In this document: in pieces, positions 11,671 through 41,676 of the stretch
Layout: every line of letters begins with the position of its first letter
Numbering within the stretch: the first letter of the stretch is position 1
Virus record (IMG/VR): IMGVR_UViG_3300037515_000203
Coordinates: 1-41,676 of that record
Source: a virus
Taxonomy: Duplodnaviria > Caudoviricetes
DNA: 41,676 nt
Direction: 5' to 3' (one strand)
The notes under the pieces: model-generated
Database searches by the model: none
Seen by the model: only the letters and a program-made list of their open reading frames with translations
Told to the model about the DNA's origin: nothing
Program-made: the position numbers and the translations under genes

Positions 11671-12998
11671 TGGCTGACAGATACGTTGATTCGAATGCCG
11701 CTGGCGCCGCCGACGGCACAACCTGGGCGGATGCCTTCACGACGCTTGCGGCTGCAGCTGCGGTTGATGTTGCGGGCGATAACATCTGGGTGGCGAGCGA
11801 TCACTCGGAGAGCACGGCTGGGAACGTGCTGCTCTCATGGGCCGGTACTGCTGCTTCACCGACTCGGATTATCAGCGCAGATAAGACGAGCGGTGCGCCG
11901 CCAGCCACCATGCAAGCTGGGGCGTCTGTGGCGGCCACAGGCGCTAACAATATCACGGTTTTCAATAGCGGGTTCGGCTATGCCTTCGGCATTACATTCG
12001 GTGCCGGTAACGGCGGAACCACTGGATTTGTGTCTGTCAATGGATCAACAGGAGATGTGGTCTGCGAGCAATGTAGTTTTAAGTTAGTGGGGTCTGGGGC
12101 AACGGCCCGTATCAATTTGTCGAACAATCCCGGCGGAAAATCCAAGCTCGTAGACTGCACATTCAAGTTCGCCAGCACGTCCCAAGCAATAAGAAGCGGA
12201 ACGCTGACCGGAACGAGCGCACAGGTTACTGGTGGGAGCATTCTTTCAGGCGGCTCCGCAATCGCGCAACTGCTAAATCCATCTGACGGGCAGACATTTC
12301 TCTTCGATGGCTTCGATCTATCGAACGCAGCGGCAACCGCAGACATTGTATCCGGCACATCCGAGAACGTCTTTGTAACGCTAAGAAACTGCAAACTTCC
12401 AGCGTCATGGTCTGGCAACCTGTGCAGCGCAGTCATCGGGGTTGGCAGCATTATCAATCTGCATGGCACGGATTCGACGGACACGAATTACAGACTCGCG
12501 AAAGGGACGATATATGGCAATGTAGTCCACGAAACGACGCTCGTGCGCTCCGATGGCGCATCAGACGGAACTACGTCTTTATCTTGGAATATGACGAGTA
12601 CAGCGGATGCGGAATGGAACCACCAGACGCTCGATTCTCCCGAGATCGTCCGTTGGAACGAGACCGTCGGCTCTGCGATCACTGCGACCATAGAGATCTT
12701 GCACGACTCAGCGACCAACATTCAGGATGATGAAATCTGGATGGAAATGCAATATCTGGGGACGAGCGGGGTACCGTTGAGCCTGTTCGTGGATGATGCT
12801 GCGGCCGACTATCTCGCGACGCCCGCCGATCAAGCGGATTCGAGCGCGAGTTGGACGACAACCGGAATGACCAATCCCAACACGCAGAAGCTCAGCGTCA
12901 CCTTTACTCCACAGGAGAAGGGCTTCATCCATGCGGTGGTGAAGCTGGCGAAGGCGTCCTATACGGTTTACGTTGATCCGAAGATCACGGTGAGTTGA
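11670..12998 (+). CDS. Putative virion appendage or carbohydrate-interacting protein (beta-helix-like)
   Basis: N-terminal YVDS.A.GA.DGTTWADAFTTL..A motif typical of right-handed beta-helix proteins; G/S/T-rich; AT-richer codons. Confidence 0.55.
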   Translation: MADRYVDSNAAGAADGTTWADAFTTLAAAAAVDVAGDNIWVASDHSESTAGNVLLSWAGTAASPTRIISADKTSGAPPATMQAGASVAATGANNITVFNSGFGYAFGITFGAGNGGTTGFVSVNGSTGDVVCEQCSFKLVGSGATARINLSNNPGGKSKLVDCTFKFASTSQAIRSGTLTGTSAQVTGGSILSGGSAIAQLLNPSDGQTFLFDGFDLSNAAATADIVSGTSENVFVTLRNCKLPASWSGNLCSAVIGVGSIINLHGTDSTDTNYRLAKGTIYGNVVHETTLVRSDGASDGTTSLSWNMTSTADAEWNHQTLDSPEIVRWNETVGSAITATIEILHDSATNIQDDEIWMEMQYLGTSGVPLSLFVDDAAADYLATPADQADSSASWTTTGMTNPNTQKLSVTFTPQEKGFIHAVVKLAKASYTVYVDPKITVS

Positions 12999-14296
12999 TG
13001 GCCGACCGGCAGGCACAGATACCGGGCGGAGCGTACTTCAACGATGTAGAGGAAGCCTCGCTCTCTCAACGCCAGATACCGGGGTTTCAGTATGTCAATG
13101 AAACCCAGGAGGCGGCGGGGGGCGAGACCGTCGCGCCAGGAGTTGTCAGTCACACCTATACCGCTCAGGCGCCGAAAGTGAGCGCGGCGGTTGCGCCGGG
13201 AGAGGTCACTCATAGCTACACCGCGCAGACGCCGAAGGTGAGCGCAGCGGTCGCACCGGGCGAGGTGACGCACAGCTACACCGCCCAGGCACCGCAGGTG
13301 CGGGCGGCTGTCATGCCGAGCGAGGTGATGCACGCCTACAGCGCCGAGACGCCGGCAGTGACGGCCGGTGCGTCGGTGCAGCCGGGCGCCGTGGTGCACA
13401 CGTACACCGCGCTTGCCCCGAAGGCCTCGGCGAGTATCGCGCCGGGCCAGGTCACGCACACGTACACCGCGGAGGCCCCGAAGGTAAGCGCAGCGGTTGC
13501 GGCGGGCGAACTGACGCACAGCTACACCGCGCAGGCGCCGAAGGTGAGCGCAGCCGTTGCGCCTGCCGAAGTCACGCACAGCTACACCGCCCAGGCGCCG
13601 CAGGCGCGGGCCGCCGTGATGCCGGGCGAAGTGACGCAAGCCTATAGCGCCGAGACGCCGGCGGTGACGGCCGGCGCGTCGGTGCAGCCGGGCGCTGTGG
13701 TGCACACGTATACCGCGCTCACCCCGAAGGCCTCGGCGAGTGTGGCGCCGGACGAGGCAGCGCACAGCTACAGCGCCGAGACGCCCGCGGTGGGCGCGGG
13801 CGCGTCGGTCGCGCCGCCGGAAGCGATGCATGTCTACAGCGCGGGCGCGCCGCAGCTCCAGGCGAGCGTCATGCCGGAGGAGGCGACACACGCATACGAT
13901 GCGCTGGCCCCGCGCACGAACCTGGATGTCCAAGTTTCGGAAGTCGAGCATGCTTACATGGCGGGCGCGCCGCAACTCCAGGCGAGCGTTATGCCGCAGG
14001 AGGCGACGCACGCATACGACGCGCTGGCCCCGCGCACGAACCTGGACGTCCAAGTCGCGGAAGTCGAGCACAGCTACACGGCCGTCGTCCCGGCGATCCC
14101 GCTCCGGGTGGCGGCGCCCGCGGTGACGCACATCTATAGCGGGTTGGCGCCGGATTTTGCCGGGCCGGTATCGCCCGGCGTCATCACCTCGAGCAATCGG
14201 ACGCGCGGTACCGTGACGGCATCAGACACGGCGCGGTCGACGACGAGCAGCGCCGCGCGCCTTGGAAGCATTACGAAGTCTGACGGACCCACCTGA
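12998..14296 (+). CDS. Repeat-rich putative fibre/virion protein
   Basis: About 17 copies of a ~20-aa unit, consensus VAPGEVTHSYTAQAPKVSAA. Confidence 0.7.
   Translation: MADRQAQIPGGAYFNDVEEASLSQRQIPGFQYVNETQEAAGGETVAPGVVSHTYTAQAPKVSAAVAPGEVTHSYTAQTPKVSAAVAPGEVTHSYTAQAPQVRAAVMPSEVMHAYSAETPAVTAGASVQPGAVVHTYTALAPKASASIAPGQVTHTYTAEAPKVSAAVAAGELTHSYTAQAPKVSAAVAPAEVTHSYTAQAPQARAAVMPGEVTQAYSAETPAVTAGASVQPGAVVHTYTALTPKASASVAPDEAAHSYSAETPAVGAGASVAPPEAMHVYSAGAPQLQASVMPEEATHAYDALAPRTNLDVQVSEVEHAYMAGAPQLQASVMPQEATHAYDALAPRTNLDVQVAEVEHSYTAVVPAIPLRVAAPAVTHIYSGLAPDFAGPVSPGVITSSNRTRGTVTASDTARSTTSSAARLGSITKSDGPT
13129..14150 (+). repeat. Degenerate ~60-bp coding tandem repeat with higher-order duplications
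   Basis: Five-unit block duplicated about 303 nt apart; 120-bp duplication at 13841 and 13961. Confidence 0.85.
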
Positions 14297-27596: not shown

Positions 27597-28121
27597 ATGA
27601 AAACCAGCGACGACGGCATCGCGCTGATCAAGGCCTTCGAGGGCATCCGCGACGGCGATCCGTCGACCGTCAACCTCGATCCCTATCTCTGCCCGGCCGA
27701 CGTCGCGACGATCGGATGGGGCCACGCGATCGTCACGCCGCTCGGGCACCAGCTGCGCGGCCGCGCCGGCCTCAATGAAGCGCGACAGATGTATCCGAAC
27801 GGCATCACCATCGAGGAGGCCGAGGAGCTCTTGCGTCTCGACCTACTCGAACGCGAGCGCGCCGTGGAGAGCATGGTCAACGTCCCTCTCAGCCAGGGGC
27901 AGTTCGACGCGCTCGTCTCGTTCGCCTTCAACGTCGGCACCGATATCGACGAGGACGACATTCCCGAAGGCCTCGGCGACTCGACGCTGCTCAGGAAACT
28001 CAACGCCGGCGACTACCAGGGCGCGGCCGACGAATTCCTGAAGTGGGTCTACGCCGGCGGCCGCAAGCTCCTCGGCCTCGAGCGCCGGCGCGCGGCGGAG
28101 CGGGAGTTGTTCCTGACGTGA
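27597..28121 (+). CDS. Endolysin, GH24 lysozyme
   Basis: FEG...YLCPA.V.TIGWGH; QGQFDALVSFAFNVG; STLLRKLNAGDY; GLERRR.AE. Confidence 0.93.
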   Translation: MKTSDDGIALIKAFEGIRDGDPSTVNLDPYLCPADVATIGWGHAIVTPLGHQLRGRAGLNEARQMYPNGITIEEAEELLRLDLLERERAVESMVNVPLSQGQFDALVSFAFNVGTDIDEDDIPEGLGDSTLLRKLNAGDYQGAADEFLKWVYAGGRKLLGLERRRAAERELFLT

Positions 28122-28789
28122 TAGATCCGTGGAAGCGCCGTGAGCTGATCGGTAACGCCACTTTGTATTTAGGCGATTGCCTTGAAATCCTTCCGACGCT
28201 GCCGAAGGTGGATGCTGTGATTACTGATCCGCCGTATGGGATTGGCTGGGTTCATAGCGGGATCGGATACCTGAAGAATGGGAAGATGTTAGGCACGAAA
28301 CACGGCGGCGAGAATGTTGTGGGGGACGACAAGCCTTTCGATCCGACGCCGTTCCTGCCGCTGGCAAGGGACGCCCTGTTCTGGGGGGCAAATAACTTTG
28401 CCGATAAGCTGCCGCCCTCGACTGGCTGGATTAACTGGGACAAGGGGATTGCGCCCGGCCTCTCATTCTCGGATTTTGAAATGGCGTGGACGAATCAGCC
28501 CGTGAAAGCGGTCATGTGGAGGCAGCAATGGTGCGGGTTTAACCGCGAGGGTGAGCGAGAGCCAAGAGAACACCCGACACAGAAGCCCGTAGGAATCATG
28601 ACGAAGTGTGTGGAGCGGTTCCCGAGGGCGCAGACGGTCCTAGACCCATTCATGGGCAGCGGCACCACGGGCGTGGCCTGCATGAATCTGGGGCGCAAGT
28701 TCATCGGCATTGAAATCGAGCCCAAGTACTTCGACATCGCCTGCGAACGCATAGAGAACGCGCAGCGGCAGCAAAGAATGTTCGCATGA
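28118..28789 (+). CDS. DNA amino-methyltransferase (N6_N4_Mtase, beta class)
   Basis: GDCLE, TDPPYG, HPTQKP, VLDPFMGSGTTG, FIGIE. Confidence 0.92.
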   Translation: MIDPWKRRELIGNATLYLGDCLEILPTLPKVDAVITDPPYGIGWVHSGIGYLKNGKMLGTKHGGENVVGDDKPFDPTPFLPLARDALFWGANNFADKLPPSTGWINWDKGIAPGLSFSDFEMAWTNQPVKAVMWRQQWCGFNREGEREPREHPTQKPVGIMTKCVERFPRAQTVLDPFMGSGTTGVACMNLGRKFIGIEIEPKYFDIACERIENAQRQQRMFA

Positions 28790-34898: not shown

Positions 34899-35188
34899 CC
34901 GACCCTCCGATACGGCGGCACCAGGCCGCGGCGGGAGAGGCGGCGGTGCAGGAAATCGTGGACGGCCATCGCGGCGACGATGCCGAGCGGGCCGCCGACG
35001 AGATAGGCGGCGAGGTCGAGGCCGCTCGTCTCGTGCGGCACGAGCTTGTAGAGCGCGAGCTGCGCGGTGCCGATCGCGACGCTGTTGACGAACGCCGGCA
35101 GGTAGCGCCGGCCGTGGACCAGGAGCTGCTGCAGCCCGAGCAGGAACACGACGGCGAAACTGGCGGCGAAGAGGGTCAGGGCGGTCAC
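34895..35188 (-). CDS. Small multi-pass membrane protein
   Basis: About three hydrophobic segments; GTG start overlaps the MTase stop. Confidence 0.6.
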   Translation of the reverse strand: MTALTLFAASFAVVFLLGLQQLLVHGRRYLPAFVNSVAIGTAQLALYKLVPHETSGLDLAAYLVGGPLGIVAAMAVHDFLHRRLSRRGLVPPYRRVG

Positions 35189-36237
35189 AGCACTAGTCCT
35201 TGCTGCGCCGTGCGCCGATCTTGCAGCTTCGCGTATTCGGGATTGAGTTCGCAGCCGAGCCACTGGCGCCCGAGTGCCTGTGCCACTTCCGCCGTCGTGC
35301 CACTGCCGAGAAAGGGATCGAGAACAACATCGCCCGGGCGCGAGCCGGCGAGGATACAGCGGCGCGGGATTTCCGAAGGAAATACGGCGAAATGCGCGTC
35401 AGGAAACGGGTCCGGGCCGAGTACCCAGTAATTGCGCATGTTGCTGCCGCAGGCCATCTGCTCCTCTTTCGTCATGGAATCCCATCGATCGTTTAACCCA
35501 GCGTGACGCCGGGAATGCCCGCGCTGCTTGTCTACACGCTTGCGGGCGTTGTCAATGATTCGTGACTTCACTTCGCTCGCGTTCTGAACGCCAGCATCAT
35601 CGAACATCTTGACCGCGTGGCCGTTATAGCCTTCCGCTACCTCACGGAGCATGGCTTCGCTCGGCGGGTTTCGCACGGCATCAGCGTCGTAGTAATAGGA
35701 CTCTGCTTCGGTGAGCAGGAATATCTTCTCCGTTGCTGATGTGGGCCGGTCAGTTACCGACTCTGGCATCGGCGCCTTCTTGCACCAGGTAATCTCTGAA
35801 CGCAGCCACCAACCGTCGGCGCGAAGGGCAAGCGCTACCGACCAGGGGATGCCGACAAGGTCCTTCGGTTTCAGTAAGGGATGTGGCTGGCGATTCGGCG
35901 CACCGATGAAGTTGGCACCGAGGTTTGATTTCTGGAGTGAGTCTTCGGCCTTAACGCGGTCCTTGGCGTAACCGCCCTTATCGCCATTGTGATAGCAGTC
36001 CCCAAGATTCAGCCACAGCGTCCCGTCGTCAGCCAGCAACTCGCGCACCAGCCGGAACACCTCGACCATATTGGCGACGTACCCCTCCGGCGTGGCTTCG
36101 AGACCGAGCTGCCCGGGTACACCGTAGTCGCGTAGCCCCCAGTACGGCGGGCTAGTCACGCACATCCGCACCTTCACGCCGTCCGCGATCCAGCGGCGCA
36201 TGATGTCCCGGCAATCTCCGATCTGGCAGTGGTTCAC
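35185..36237 (-). CDS. DNA amino-methyltransferase (N6_N4_Mtase, SPPY type, probably m4C)
   Basis: GDCR, VTSPPYWGLRDY, HFAVFP, VLDPFLGSGTT, GCELN. Confidence 0.92.
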   Translation of the reverse strand: MNHCQIGDCRDIMRRWIADGVKVRMCVTSPPYWGLRDYGVPGQLGLEATPEGYVANMVEVFRLVRELLADDGTLWLNLGDCYHNGDKGGYAKDRVKAEDSLQKSNLGANFIGAPNRQPHPLLKPKDLVGIPWSVALALRADGWWLRSEITWCKKAPMPESVTDRPTSATEKIFLLTEAESYYYDADAVRNPPSEAMLREVAEGYNGHAVKMFDDAGVQNASEVKSRIIDNARKRVDKQRGHSRRHAGLNDRWDSMTKEEQMACGSNMRNYWVLGPDPFPDAHFAVFPSEIPRRCILAGSRPGDVVLDPFLGSGTTAEVAQALGRQWLGCELNPEYAKLQDRRTAQQGLVL

Positions 36238-36566
36238 CTTCCGTCCTCGCCCCACGGCCGGATCATGTGCGGCGCGTCGGGCTTGCGGGTGAGATTGCCG
36301 CGCGCTTCGAGGTAGGCGATGGCCTGGTCGATCATGTAGCAGTCGTCGCTCGCGACGAGGGTGGTGTCATACCAGATCGTCGCGCCTTTGCCCTCGTAGG
36401 GCAGGTTGCACTCGATGTCGGCGCGGGCGGTGCTGTCGGCGATCTCGATCGCGTCGGCGAGGAAGCGCAGGCTGGCGCGGTCGAAGGTGAAGTAGCGCGG
36501 GAAGCACATGGGGTCATTCGCCCAGGCGCGCAGTTCCTCGACGTCGAGCTTTTTCGGGTCGCTCAT
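36234..36566 (-). CDS. Hypothetical protein
   Basis: MSDPKK start coupled to the upstream stop; GC3-rich codons. Confidence 0.6.
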   Translation of the reverse strand: MSDPKKLDVEELRAWANDPMCFPRYFTFDRASLRFLADAIEIADSTARADIECNLPYEGKGATIWYDTTLVASDDCYMIDQAIAYLEARGNLTRKPDAPHMIRPWGEDGR

Positions 36567-36778: not shown

Positions 36779-36996
36779 AGTGGAACGCGCCGGTATAGAA
36801 AACCGAAGTCGGGCGGCTCGATCTGCACGGTGACGATGGTCTCGGCCGGGACGCAGCGGTAACCCTGCGTCTGCGCGTAAGGCCAGATGGCGATCCGGCC
36901 GCGCAGGAGTTTGAAAATCGCCCGGCCCGGATAGATCCCGCGGGTCCACGGGCAGGGGCGGCCGTCGGGGGCGAGGATGAGCCATGACTCGCGCAT
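36760..36996 (-). CDS. Hypothetical protein
   Basis: Start overlaps the upstream stop. Confidence 0.5.
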   Translation of the reverse strand: MRESWLILAPDGRPCPWTRGIYPGRAIFKLLRGRIAIWPYAQTQGYRCVPAETIVTVQIEPPDFGFLYRRVPLCRSAD

Positions 36997-37508
36997 CAGC
37001 GGTTATTCGGATTGCTCTTCGGTGGGGGGATTTGCGGAGTCCCACTGATTTTTGACGAAGGCAGAATATTGAGTTGGCTTTTCCGCGATTCGCGATCGAC
37101 GTTACCCAGGAGCAAACACTGGTGATCGCGAATTTTGCGTTGCTCGTCAGTTGCCTCCTTGATCGTGTGCAGCGCCGTTCTCTGATCTCGCATGATGCGG
37201 CCGACGGATTTGAATGCGGGTCGGGTGTTTGCTATGATCTGATCCGCACTCGCAACATAGAACGCGAGGGTTTGCTGGCAATAAATCACCACGCCTTTTT
37301 TCTTCATTTCATTGCGCCAGCGGTTCGTGATCGTCCAAAAACGGCGGTTGTCCCGCGTCACGCCGATGAGTTTCGCTATCGTGGCGTAATCGAAGCGGTC
37401 TCCGATTTTCGGTTCCGGCCAGGTCCTCATCAAAACCTCGACGTCGGGTCCCGTGGGGAGTCCTTCGTCCCAGCGGTAATGTTTCTGGTCCTTGTCATCG
37501 TCGCTCAT
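36996..37508 (-). CDS. Hypothetical protein, possible winged-HTH; candidate accessory of the RAMP/array locus
   Basis: GAGGAG RBS right after the array 4 hairpin; YATIAKLIGV helix pattern. Confidence 0.65.
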   Translation of the reverse strand: MSDDDKDQKHYRWDEGLPTGPDVEVLMRTWPEPKIGDRFDYATIAKLIGVTRDNRRFWTITNRWRNEMKKKGVVIYCQQTLAFYVASADQIIANTRPAFKSVGRIMRDQRTALHTIKEATDEQRKIRDHQCLLLGNVDRESRKSQLNILPSSKISGTPQIPPPKSNPNNR

Positions 37509-37527
37509 CGTTTCTCCTCAAATCGTT

Positions 37528-37642
37528 GGTCATTGACCCCGTGCCCCGCCCCGCTTCGCCGAGCCATGCCGAGCCCTGCCCTGCCAGGCCGAGCCCTGCC
37601 GTGCCGAGCCCTGCCGTGCCGCGAGCCCAACATGAATTCGGT
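37528..37642 (-). ncRNA. GGC-NN pentamer array 4 with linker and terminal hairpin (candidate guide RNA)
   Basis: Linker ACCGAATTCATGTTGGGCTCGC; 16 pentamers at 37541-37620 (one AGC variant); then GG-GGTC-AAT-GACC. Confidence 0.7.
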
Positions 37643-37648
37643 TGTATC

Positions 37649-37751
37649 AGCCATTGGCTCCTTGCCCTGCCACGCCACGCCCCGCCAGGCCGCGCCGGAC
37701 CGTGCCCAGCCGCGCCTAGGCCTGCCCGGCCCGGCCTGGCCTGGCCCAGCC
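37649..37751 (-). ncRNA. GGC-NN pentamer array 3 with terminal hairpin (candidate guide RNA)
   Basis: 18 pentamers at 37662-37751 (one GGT, one GCC); then GG-AGCC-AAT-GGCT. Confidence 0.7.
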
Positions 37752-37778
37752 CGACACTCCAGAATGTCAAAAAACATC

Positions 37779-38435
37779 TCATCCCAAGCGCGCCTCGAAG
37801 GTTCCATACGGCCCCGGCGTTCTCCCACCCGGGCGCCAGTCGCAGAGGCCCTTGTATTGCCCCGCGTATTCGAGGATGTTCAGCAGCGCCTTGTCGTCGA
37901 GCTGCTCGTCCCAGATAACGAACGTTCCGCTGATGCTCCAGTTCGAAAATTGCGGCCGCACGCGAATATGTTTCGAGGAGCCGATCTTGGCGCGCTTGAT
38001 CAAGAGATCAAAGCCTAGGTCCTGCGCGGCTTTTTTGTGAGCGGCAAATTTTGGAACGTCTTTCAGCTGCTCGATCGACTTCCACGTGATGGTGTCATTC
38101 TCGACCTTGAGCGGCCACAACGGTTCCTGCGACATCATCCCGCTCTGCGTCTGCGCCTTGAAGGTCTTGCCGGATTTCCCGCCCGGCACAGGCACCATCG
38201 CTCCGCCTTCCATGAGGCAGCGCATGATGTTGGCCGACGGAATGCCGAGCAGTTTGCCGTCGTGGTAGCAGCAACCGAGCCAACGCCAGGCGGGCGTGCG
38301 GTCATCCCCCGCCTTGCTGTGCTTCTTGTTGGCCGGATCGGACTTCCATTCATCCATGAAGTCCGCCCACTCGATGTTATCGTGATGCATCAACAGCGGG
38401 GTTTTCCCCGTGAAGGTGACTTTATAGGTGCGCAT
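37779..38435 (-). CDS. Stand-alone RAMP/Cas7-like protein (Vipr-like candidate), 218 aa
   Basis: AGGAG RBS; YKVTFTGKTPLLMH first strand, GIPSANIMRCL (IPxxx+K/R-like), R.RP.F..W, C-terminal Gly-rich loop AGQYKGLCDWRPGG..PGPYGTF; flanked by GGC-NN arrays. Confidence 0.7.
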   Translation of the reverse strand: MRTYKVTFTGKTPLLMHHDNIEWADFMDEWKSDPANKKHSKAGDDRTPAWRWLGCCYHDGKLLGIPSANIMRCLMEGGAMVPVPGGKSGKTFKAQTQSGMMSQEPLWPLKVENDTITWKSIEQLKDVPKFAAHKKAAQDLGFDLLIKRAKIGSSKHIRVRPQFSNWSISGTFVIWDEQLDDKALLNILEYAGQYKGLCDWRPGGRTPGPYGTFEARLG

Positions 38436-38496
38436 GTGTTCTCCTGGGCTGGTGCGCAATTGCACCGGAAGGGCGCCTCGTCAGAAGCGCCTATCC

Positions 38497-38607
38497 ATTG
38501 CATTGCAATCCTTGCCTCGCCCCGCCTGGCCCCGCCACGCCAAGCCTGGCCCCGCCACGCCATGCCTCGCCGCGCCATGCCTGGCCGCGAGCCCAACAGA
38601 ATTCGGT
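38497..38607 (-). ncRNA. GGC-NN pentamer array 2 with linker and terminal hairpin (candidate guide RNA)
   Basis: Linker ACCGAATTCTGTTGGGCTCGC; 15 perfect GGC-NN units at 38512-38586; then GG-ATTGC-AAT-GCAAT. Confidence 0.7.
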
Positions 38608-38614
38608 GATGCGT

Positions 38615-38682
38615 GGTCATAGACCCCTTGCCTTGCCCAGCGCTGCCCGGACCGGCCAAGCCCTGCCAAGCCCTGGCCCGCC
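38615..38682 (-). ncRNA. Degenerate GGC-NN array 1 with terminal hairpin
   Basis: 11 pentamers at 38628-38682 (3 imperfect); then GG-GGTC-TAT-GACC. Confidence 0.55.
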
Positions 38683-38844
38683 CCGATGGAAAACCCAGCG
38701 ACAACCGAGCCATGCGATCGCCCGTGCGCGCGCCTCGTCATAACGCGCAGGTTTGTCTGGCTTGAACCCGCGAATTCGTTCGATCGTATGCGCGATGTCT
38801 TCGGCATAGGCTTCGCGCGTATTCATGGGTTGATGCAGACTCAT
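38617..38844 (-). CDS. Hypothetical protein; 3' end runs through array 1
   Basis: ATGA overlap with the upstream ORF; protein-like up to AIAWLGCRWVFH. Confidence 0.5.
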   Translation of the reverse strand: MSLHQPMNTREAYAEDIAHTIERIRGFKPDKPARYDEARARAIAWLGCRWVFHRGGPGLGRAWPVRAALGKARGL

Positions 38845-38975
38845 GGTTTTGCCTTTCCAAGATTGCCGCGGCCGCGTTTAACGGCGAGCTCGGCGTCCTC
38901 CCGCCGCCGCTCGACGTGCAGCCGCCAGATGCCGAGGATGGCGATGGCGAGTAGGAGGATGAGGTCGAGGCTCAC
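38841..38975 (-). CDS. Small membrane protein (44 aa, not in ORF track)
   Basis: MSLDLILLLAIAILGIWRL...; coupled to neighbours at both ends. Confidence 0.5.
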   Translation of the reverse strand: MSLDLILLLAIAILGIWRLHVERRREDAELAVKRGRGNLGKAKP

Positions 38976-39160
38976 CGCTGTGGCCTCGGCGGCAAGCTGA
39001 TGTTGCGGCGCACCTGGCGGTCCATGCGTGCGGCGCCGGAGCGCTCGCCCAGGGCGAAGCCGAACAGATAGCCCGCTAGGAACGCGAACACGCCGACGAG
39101 AAGCAGTAGCACGAAAAGCTGCGACTCGAAAACCGGCGGGACGGGGACGGGGGCGATCAT
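38972..39160 (-). CDS. Small membrane protein, first gene of the leftward early operon
   Basis: One long TM segment; ATG 6 nt after the pL -10 box, so probably leaderless. Confidence 0.55.
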   Translation of the reverse strand: MIAPVPVPPVFESQLFVLLLLVGVFAFLAGYLFGFALGERSGAARMDRQVRRNISLPPRPQR

Positions 39161-39166
39161 GCAGGC

Positions 39167-39208
39167 ATGATAGGACATAGATGTCCCTCCGTCAAGACAT
39201 TTATGTCT
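39167..39208 (-). promoter_or_regulatory. pL-like promoter with two palindromic operators
   Basis: TTGACG-17-TATCAT on the - strand; GGACAT-AG-ATGTCC at 39173-39186 and AGACAT-TT-ATGTCT at 39195-39208. Confidence 0.85.
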
Positions 39209-39299
39209 CGCCTGAGGCGAAAACGAACAGACTGGACCCGGCGGGGAGCGCTCAGGCGGCCTGTCGACTTAGTTTCTCAGCTATACGGGAGTCGATCGA

Positions 39300-39677
39300 C
39301 TAGTTCTTGATCAGGAGATCGTAGACGACCTCCTTGCTATCGACGCACACGCCTGTTGCTTGCGTCATCAACATATCGAACGCGAAATCGCAGCGAATCT
39401 GTCCGGCGGTGCCCAACAGCAGCGCCGAGGCCTTGTTCGTGTGTGTCGTCGACGTAGCGGGTCCCCAAAGCCCCGCCATGGTCGTGCTCGTCTCCATGAT
39501 CATTGGGCCTCGGTATTCATTGCCCTGGATCTGCACGGTGAGCGTGTTCGTGATCCGATCAAGCTCACCATAACCTTGCGTACGGTCCGCGCCGCGCGGA
39601 AAAAGTGTGGCGGATTGCCGGGCGGCGCAAGCCGAGAGCAGCACCACAATCAATAGTGAAAACAGACGTTTCTCCAT
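39300..39677 (-). CDS. Lipoprotein downstream of the repressor (possible superinfection exclusion)
   Basis: GAGGAG RBS; signal peptide with lipobox LLSA-C. Confidence 0.75.
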   Translation of the reverse strand: MEKRLFSLLIVVLLSACAARQSATLFPRGADRTQGYGELDRITNTLTVQIQGNEYRGPMIMETSTTMAGLWGPATSTTHTNKASALLLGTAGQIRCDFAFDMLMTQATGVCVDSKEVVYDLLIKN

Positions 39678-41325: not shown

Positions 41326-41676
41326 AAATCACCGATCTGAAACCCCGCGTGGTGCGACCAGACGCGGAGCGCGAAAGGTCCGCGCTCGTAGTCGAGCGGA
41401 TGGAATTCCGCCAGCGCCGCAGCGCGGCGAGCAAGAAGGCGTTGGCCGACCCGGCGGTGCGCGCGCGGATGAGCGCGGCGAGCAAGAAGGCGTTGGCCGA
41501 CCCGGCGGTGCGCGCGCGGATGAGCGCGGCGAGCAAGAAGGCGTGGGCCGACCCGGCGGTGCGCGCGCGGATGAGCGCGGCGAGCAAGAAGGCGTGGGCC
41601 GACCCGGCGGTGCGCGCGCGGATGAGCGCGGCGGGCAAGAAGGCGTGGGCCGACCCGGCGGTGCGCGGGGGGCTGG
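41322..41676 (+). CDS. Partial protein with NUMOD3-like 17-aa repeats (runs off the window)
   Basis: TTG start overlapping the upstream stop; SAASKKA(L/W)ADPAVRARM about 5 times. Confidence 0.6.
   Translation, partial: MKITDLKPRVVRPDAERERSALVVERMEFRQRRSAASKKALADPAVRARMSAASKKALADPAVRARMSAASKKAWADPAVRARMSAASKKAWADPAVRARMSAAGKKAWADPAVRGGL
41421..41667 (+). repeat. 51-bp tandem repeat, about 4.8 copies
   Basis: Near-identical units starting at 41421, 41472, 41523, 41574, 41625. Confidence 0.95.

What the first reader, a model, noticed from the sequence alone, without database searches (positions are those of the whole stretch)
37528..38627. Every array ends in GG plus a covarying hairpin, and arrays 2 and 4 share a leader
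Seen on the - strand: GG-GGTC-TAT-GACC, GG-ATTGC-AAT-GCAAT, GG-AGCC-AAT-GGCT and GG-GGTC-AAT-GACC. Three different stem sequences all pair perfectly around a WAT loop. The last pentamer is GGCAA three times and GGCAC once. The linker ACCGAATTC(A)TGTTGGGCTCGC precedes arrays 2 and 4. Further hairpins lie at 37753-37768 and 38451-38466. Inference: compensatory changes indicate selection on RNA structure, so these are discrete processed RNA units with a 5' handle and 3' cap, not a microsatellite.
Basis: partly seen in the sequence, partly recalled or inferred. Interest (0 to 1): 0.85.

Follow-up and report, generated by a model that had tools for sequence, protein, structure and literature searches.

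The report
Hairpin caps of phage VIPR guides
The four repeat arrays lie around a phage gene for Vipr, the protein of a CRISPR-related gene-silencing system (VIPR) described in 2026, and each ends in a tiny hairpin that keeps its pairing across related phages, so they are likely guide RNAs with a hairpin cap; this is a new example of a known system.

Summary
Four GGY-NN arrays on the minus strand each end in GG plus a perfect 4-5 bp hairpin, and arrays 2 and 4 share a 21-22 nt linker. They surround a 218-aa Vipr gene (SUSP1 Vipr structure hit, E 1.7e-9) and precede a Vap1 homologue in a temperate phage. This is a VIPR locus.

The hairpin recurs in 122 of 164 unique tails from related loci (shuffle mean 4.4), with 21 stem variants. 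It sits where the first stem of SUSP1's published pseudoknot tail sits, but its 3-nt loop leaves no room for that pseudoknot.

In one close relative, 24 of 30 NN letters of array 2 differ against 2 of 45 GGY letters, with no listed change in linker or tails.

No convincing target and no RNA data were found. The scan noted similar mini-hairpin VIPR tails before on other DNA.

The parts
39167..39195 (-). Sigma-70-like promoter (10 of 12 consensus matches) upstream of the operon; candidate early promoter
   Evidence: consensus match only
38617..38844 (-). 75-aa ORF whose last codons run through array 1; its stop codon falls in tail hairpin 1
   Evidence: no Pfam family
38628..38682 (-). Array 1 (candidate vrRNA1 guide), 11 pentamers, 8 GGY
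38615..38627 (-). Terminal GG plus tail hairpin P1 of array 1 (4 bp, 3-nt loop)
   Evidence: no listed change in a close relative
38587..38607 (-). Linker shared with the linker before array 4; its last three letters fit the first YNN of the next array
38512..38586 (-). Array 2 (candidate vrRNA2 guide), 15 perfect GGY-NN units; NN letters rewritten in a close relative
38451..38511 (-). Long tail of array 2: P1 (5 bp), P2 (about 38496-38467) and P3 (38466-38451), followed by the vipr ribosome site
37779..38435 (-). vipr gene, 218 aa, RAMP fold with thumb and G-loop
37753..37768 (-). Small hairpin between vipr stop and array 3; significance not shown
   Evidence: z 0.30
37662..37751 (-). Array 3 (candidate vrRNA3 guide), 18 pentamers, 17 GGY
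37649..37661 (-). Terminal GG plus tail hairpin P1 of array 3
37621..37642 (-). Second copy of the linker
37541..37620 (-). Array 4 (candidate vrRNA4 guide), 16 pentamers, 15 GGY
37528..37540 (-). Terminal GG plus tail hairpin P1 of array 4, followed by the vap ribosome site
36996..37508 (-). vap1-like accessory gene, 170 aa, predicted winged helix plus long helix
   Evidence: (low confidence)

Best explanation
This is a VIPR locus of a temperate phage: four GGY-NN arrays flank a Vipr gene and a Vap1-like gene, and each array is likely a guide RNA whose 4-5 bp hairpin would serve as the 3' cap at which the Vipr filament ends.

Shown here: the gene identities, the arrays, hairpin covariation, and NN hypervariability on a fixed GGY scaffold.

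[quoted passage not shown] One Vipr binds each pentamer and buries GGY. The NN pairs read double-stranded DNA with one skipped base per unit, starting near the 3' tail, and the complex silences genes of competing phages or prophages.

The hairpin corresponds to the first stem of SUSP1's pseudoknot tail, reduced to a plain stem-loop. It probably blocks 3' trimming and sets the filament register. The extra P2-P3 hairpins after array 2 probably act as a spacer or cutting signal between units. The shared linker is probably a relic of duplication or gene conversion between the two guide pairs rather than a binding handle.
For: Protein: only significant PDB sequence hit is SUSP1 Vipr, E 1.7e-9 (profile 3.9e-11); 24% identity over residues 1-202. 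AlphaFold model pLDDT 85; all 35 Foldseek rows listed are type III or VII CRISPR effector complexes. SUSP1's GGY-reading residues H17, R138, D177, W178 map to H17, R158, D199, W200, kept in 84/84, 84/84, 82/83 and 83/83 homologues. R201 is invariant in the 67-row alignment.

Arrays: 82 of 84 homologous loci hold at least 5 perfect GGY-NN units on the vipr strand, 1 on the other strand.

Tail: 122 of 164 unique tails, shuffle mean 4.4 and max 12; 1 at offsets -1 and -2, 2-9 at offsets +2 to +20; arm swap 120 of 141 vs 12.6; 17 of 31 loci with two or more hairpin tails hold different paired stems. The three SUSP1 tails my script caught also start GG plus a 4-bp stem. P2 covaries in 9 of 11 pairs across 22 long tails.

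Close relative: 24 of 30 NN positions changed against 2 of 45 GGY positions.

Vap: a profile of 40 family members hits SUSP1 Vap1 at 34.6 bits, best of 22 decoys 0 bits. Context: terminase, capsid, integrase, repressor-like genes.
Against: No RNA ends or binding were observed; expression and processing are inferred. No convincing natural target was found. SUSP1 K82, needed for repression, aligns to M80 here (M in 52 of the homologues), and direct BLAST of the Vap to SUSP1 Vap1 is not significant (E 0.22). RNAfold prefers other pairings for tails 2 and 3 when folded alone. 42 of 164 tails lack the hairpin; these include mis-called array ends and loci with other tail types. The close-relative result rests on one contig of depth 3.2, and 5 of its 31 differences are not placed.
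Confidence: 0.9

Rival explanations
1. Same VIPR system, but the hairpin is mainly a processing or protein-recognition mark (for a host nuclease, Vipr itself or Vap1) rather than a protective cap retained on the mature RNA.
For: The first pair is G-C in 116 of 119 stems and the last NN is AA in 74 of 119, which suggests sequence reading at the junction. A 4-bp stem is weak on its own. The P2-P3 extension lies before another array in 23 of 27 long tails.
Against: In SUSP1 the tail is retained and resolved at the 3' end of the filament, and its first stem starts at the same position. Stem sequence is otherwise free (21 variants).
Confidence: 0.3
2. The linker is a functional 5' handle (cut site or loading signal).
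For: Two near-identical copies in the window; no listed change in a close relative whose guide is rewritten.
Against: Best match in the other loci was 17 of 22 letters. No conserved upstream motif in 155 flanks. Short linkers in homologues range from 7 to 67 nt. Arrays 1 and 3 lack it.
Confidence: 0.15
3. The arrays are neutral GC-rich microsatellites and the hairpins are chance or DNA-level features.
For: Arrays 2 and 4 hold internal duplicated blocks (TRF periods 15 and 20). Short tails have no unusual folding energy.
Against: Strand-locked association with vipr (82 of 84 vs 1), position-locked covarying stems, and changes confined to NN without indels.
Confidence: 0.02

Closest known systems
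Type II VIPR of Escherichia phage SUSP1 (bioRxiv 10.64898/2026.04.26.720920, .720927, 10.64898/2026.10.15.759431; PDB 36PP)
   Same: Vipr RAMP with the same GGY-reading residues, Vap1 homologue, four GGY-NN arrays, and a structured 3' tail that starts GG plus a 4-bp stem.
   Different: Vipr only 24% identical. Tail loop is 3 nt with no room for the pseudoknot. Two arrays sit between vipr and vap, whereas SUSP1's two genes are adjacent. The phage is temperate. K82 is replaced by M.
VIPR of the Pseudomonas fulva prophage (same preprints), and the locus of Pseudomonas phage vB_Pae_LESphi2 (OQ594955)
   Same: Prophage setting next to the repressor. LESphi2 tails are plain hairpins with the same P1-P2-P3 layout. 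The P. fulva structure lacked a pseudoknot-like marker.
   Different: I could not see the P. fulva sequences or figures, so treating LESphi2 as a stand-in for that clade is my assumption. LESphi2 Vipr is 25% identical to this one.
Class 1 CRISPR-Cas crRNA with a 3' stem-loop handle and Cas7-family backbone
   Same: RAMP filament on a guide with a structured end.
   Different: No repeat-spacer array and no cas family hit among the 30 ORFs scanned against PHROGs. The guide is a gapped pentamer code.

Membership tests
VIPR system | Vipr: single RAMP protein with RRM core, thumb and G-loop | tested here: met
VIPR system | Adjacent arrays of alternating GGY/NN, typically 9-16 units | tested here: met
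   11, 15, 18 and 16 units; one is above the typical range
VIPR system | NN hypervariable, GGY fixed | tested here: met
   24 of 30 vs 2 of 45 positions changed in one close relative; all 16 dinucleotides used in 222 homologous arrays
VIPR system | Structurally conserved 3' tail after the repeats | tested here: met
VIPR system | Minimal locus of vipr plus a vap gene, mostly in phages, without cas genes or CRISPR array | tested here: met
   (30 of the window's ORFs scanned); vap hit downstream of vipr in 47 of 84 loci
VIPR system | Arrays expressed as discrete RNAs that co-purify with Vipr | not testable with these tools
   needs small RNA-seq or pull-down
VIPR system | NN string matches a DNA target with one skipped base per unit | tested here: inconclusive
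   seeded exact scans for arrays 2-4 gave no clear full-length match; array 1 not scanned in collections
Type II VIPR | Vap1-type DNA-binding accessory gene | tested here: met
   family profile hits SUSP1 Vap1 at 34.6 bits; pairwise BLAST not significant
Type II VIPR | Placement in the type II Vipr clade | not tested
   no tree built; the reference set (data S4) was not available
SUSP1-clade vrRNA tail | 3' pseudoknot (large loop pairing with a downstream segment) | tested here: not met
   3-nt loops against 10-nt loops in SUSP1; judged by inspection
Known Rfam RNA family or ribozyme spacer | Match to an Rfam covariance model | tested here: not met
   0 matches at E up to 5 over 36900-39400

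The most novel reading that the evidence does not exclude
This Vipr clade rewrites its guides as whole cassettes. A close relative has an array 2 of the same length with nearly all NN letters different between unchanged flanks, while its vipr gene is about 96% identical. The linker and hairpin tail would then be the homology arms or signals of a guide-exchange step, which is the unexplained 'adaptation' stage of VIPR. The pseudoknot-free mini-hairpin and the P1-P2-P3 spacer would define a distinct tail subtype with a very compact scaffold.
Probability: 0.2. Interest if true: 0.75.

Novelty: new member of a known kind. Interest (0 to 1): 0.3.

Why it matters
VIPR and its structured 3' tail are already in print, so the class is not new. 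What this adds: covariation evidence that a 4-5 bp stem directly after the last repeat is the shared core of tails well beyond the SUSP1 clade, while the pseudoknot is not general; a minimal natural tail of about 11-13 nt that could shorten engineered guides; and a pair of close relatives showing a guide fully rewritten between fixed flanks, which gives a handle on how new guides arise.

Tried and rejected
Target search under the one-skip rule. Viral scans gave 22, 4, 0, 58 and 0 seeded matches. Best full scores: 23 of 30 for array 2, 25 of 32 for array 4 (L106; 16 forced by the seed, 9 of 16 outside it), and 23 of 32 among 51 unique matches. The metagenome scan gave 5 matches scoring 25, 24, 24, 22 and 21 of 30, with 20 forced by the seed. 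Three reach the paper's 80% line numerically, but only 5, 4 and 4 of 10 free letters match in a very large collection, so I treat them as unproven. 0 of 401 genomes matched array 2 with up to 3 mismatches; the host is unknown, so that sample may be the wrong group. Array 1 was not scanned in collections. Best self-matches were 15/22, 22/30, 22/36 and 21/32.

No RNA holder listed. Rfam: no match. Pfam: nothing for Vipr or Vap. The single-sequence Vap model had pLDDT 47 and was not used for a fold search; Atlas structure hits to winged-helix regulators were under TM 0.5.

One search used a structure string that I had misregistered, and its null result is void; one search repeats it with the RNAalifold structure. 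That structure was derived from the same alignment, and those 22 tails were selected for having P1, so only P2 is informative there. P3 was found in 20 of 27 long tails with G-U allowed and no shuffle control; RNAalifold did not predict it.

The fate of the hairpin at 37753-37768 in the close relative is unclear, because that region did not align. A mini-tRNA reading of the long tail (lead from e1-5812001) was checked by eye only and not adopted.

Full report
Observation. Only one other GG-stem-WAT-stem occurs in the whole window.

Setting. The window is a whole 41,676-base virus record. It has terminase, capsid, portal, tape measure, lysin, integrase and repressor-like genes, so it is a temperate phage. 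The arrays lie downstream of a repressor-like gene and a consensus promoter at 39195-39167. The order is: 75-aa ORF overlapping array 1, linker, array 2, long tail, a 218-aa ORF, array 3, linker, array 4, a 170-aa ORF. The host is unknown; the run that holds nearly all of the locus is a sediment metagenome.

The proteins. The 218-aa protein has 1,618 relatives and no Pfam family. Its only significant PDB sequence match is SUSP1 Vipr (E 1.7e-9; 3.9e-11 with a profile; 24% identity). Its model (pLDDT 85) matches type III and VII CRISPR complexes. The residues that read GGY in SUSP1 (H17, R138, D177, W178, R179) map to H17, R158, D199, W200 and R201 and are near-invariant in homologues. K82, needed for repression in SUSP1, aligns to M80. 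A profile of 40 relatives of the 170-aa protein hits SUSP1 Vap1 at 34.6 bits, with the best of 22 decoys at 0, although pairwise BLAST does not. In 84 loci with a vipr homologue, 82 carry GGY-NN arrays on the same strand and 1 on the other; 47 have the vap downstream, 30 of them with an array in between.

The hairpin. From 80 viral loci (L001 and L002 dropped as duplicates) plus the window I called 336 array ends, dropped 95 where a shifted array continues at once, and merged the remaining 241 to 164 unique tails. 122 form a Watson-Crick stem of at least 4 bp starting exactly two bases after the last pentamer. Shuffles give 4.4 (max 12). Offsets -2 and -1 give 1 each, +2 to +20 give 2-9, and +1 gives 34 because 5-bp stems still contain a 4-bp stem. 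Among 141 GG-starting tails from 59 homologous loci, 120 pair against 12.6 after arm swaps between loci. There are 21 different 4-nt arms, and 17 of 31 multi-tail loci hold more than one stem. These counts are sequences, not independent events, and no phylogenetic correction was made. WAT loops are 34 of 119. The three SUSP1 tails caught by my script begin the same way, GG plus a 4-bp stem, but with a 10-nt loop complementary to a downstream segment, which fits the published pseudoknot. I therefore read the window's hairpin as the same first stem without the pseudoknot. Folding energy alone does not support the small hairpins, and RNAfold prefers other pairings for tails 2 and 3.

Long tail. 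Array 2 continues into two more hairpins. A similar P1-P2-P3 layout occurs in 27 of 161 unique tails, 23 of them before another array. In the window it precedes the vipr ribosome site. P2 shows changes on both sides in 9 of 11 pairs, and 0 of 500 shuffles reach the covariation score (structure from then on the same alignment). P3 is weaker.

The linker. It has no good match in other loci (best 17 of 22), and upstream flanks carry no motif beyond a pyrimidine at -3 (117 of 155), which is the published YNNGG register. It is therefore not a family-wide 5' handle. A contig from another study (run X5, depth 3.2) covers 38400-38637 without gaps. It differs at 24 of 30 NN positions of array 2 and 2 of 45 GGY positions (one keeps the pyrimidine), and has no listed change in tail 1, the linker or the long tail. 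26 of its 31 differences are placed there; three more lie in the gene start. Its vipr pieces differ at 8 of 208 and 11 of 247 bases. This shows NN hypervariability directly and leaves cassette-like exchange open.

Mechanism. By membership in VIPR I infer guide RNAs coated by one Vipr per pentamer, gapped recognition of double-stranded DNA nucleating near the 3' tail, and silencing of rival phage genes, helped by Vap1. None of these steps was observed for this locus. Target searches were inconclusive.

Literature seen. 10.64898/2026.04.26.720920: whole text in six parts and a term search of its one held supplement. 10.64898/2026.04.26.720927: parts 1-2 of 6 and passages. 10.64898/2026.10.15.759431: part 1 of 8 and passages. 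10.64898/2026.10.21.760802: passages. These describe the structured tail and covariation for the SUSP1 clade. I found no text describing a plain mini-hairpin tail or the P1-P2-P3 spacer (searches; term look-ups). Figures (S8, S17, 5A) and data files were not visible and may show them, so the claim that this tail form is undescribed is weak. Earlier scan notes report a similar mini-hairpin on another genome.

Verdict. A real feature and a new member of a known system. Interest 0.3.

Noticed in passing
window 41421-41667: A 51-bp repeat, 4.8 copies at 98% identity, running to the contig end; it reads as a 17-residue basic repeat in an open frame on the - strand. No Pfam hit in the one frame scanned.
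   Followed up: partly
window 13151-14070: 60-bp and 120-bp coding repeats (20-residue units) inside the 433-aa ORF at 12995-14296; no Pfam or PHROG family.
   Followed up: partly
window 38617-38844 (-): A 75-aa ORF reads through array 1 and stops inside its tail hairpin; array 1 is the most degenerate of the four.
   Followed up: partly
window 38451-38511 (-): The P3 loop is complementary to the 3' arm of P1, and RNAfold predicts that alternative pairing next to the vipr ribosome site; it could be a switch linking guide loading to vipr translation.
   Followed up: no
L071-L073, L075, L076, L078-L080: Homologous loci with long staggered arrays of up to about 12 guides separated only by a 7-nt GGAAC-type spacer and no hairpin: a second architecture within the same Vipr family.
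   Followed up: no
window 28043-28789 (+) and 35185-36255 (-): Two separate DNA methyltransferase genes in this small phage.
   Followed up: no
window 38512-38586 and 37541-37620: Arrays 2 and 4 contain internal repeats of 3-unit NN blocks, suggesting slippage contributes to guide change.
   Followed up: no
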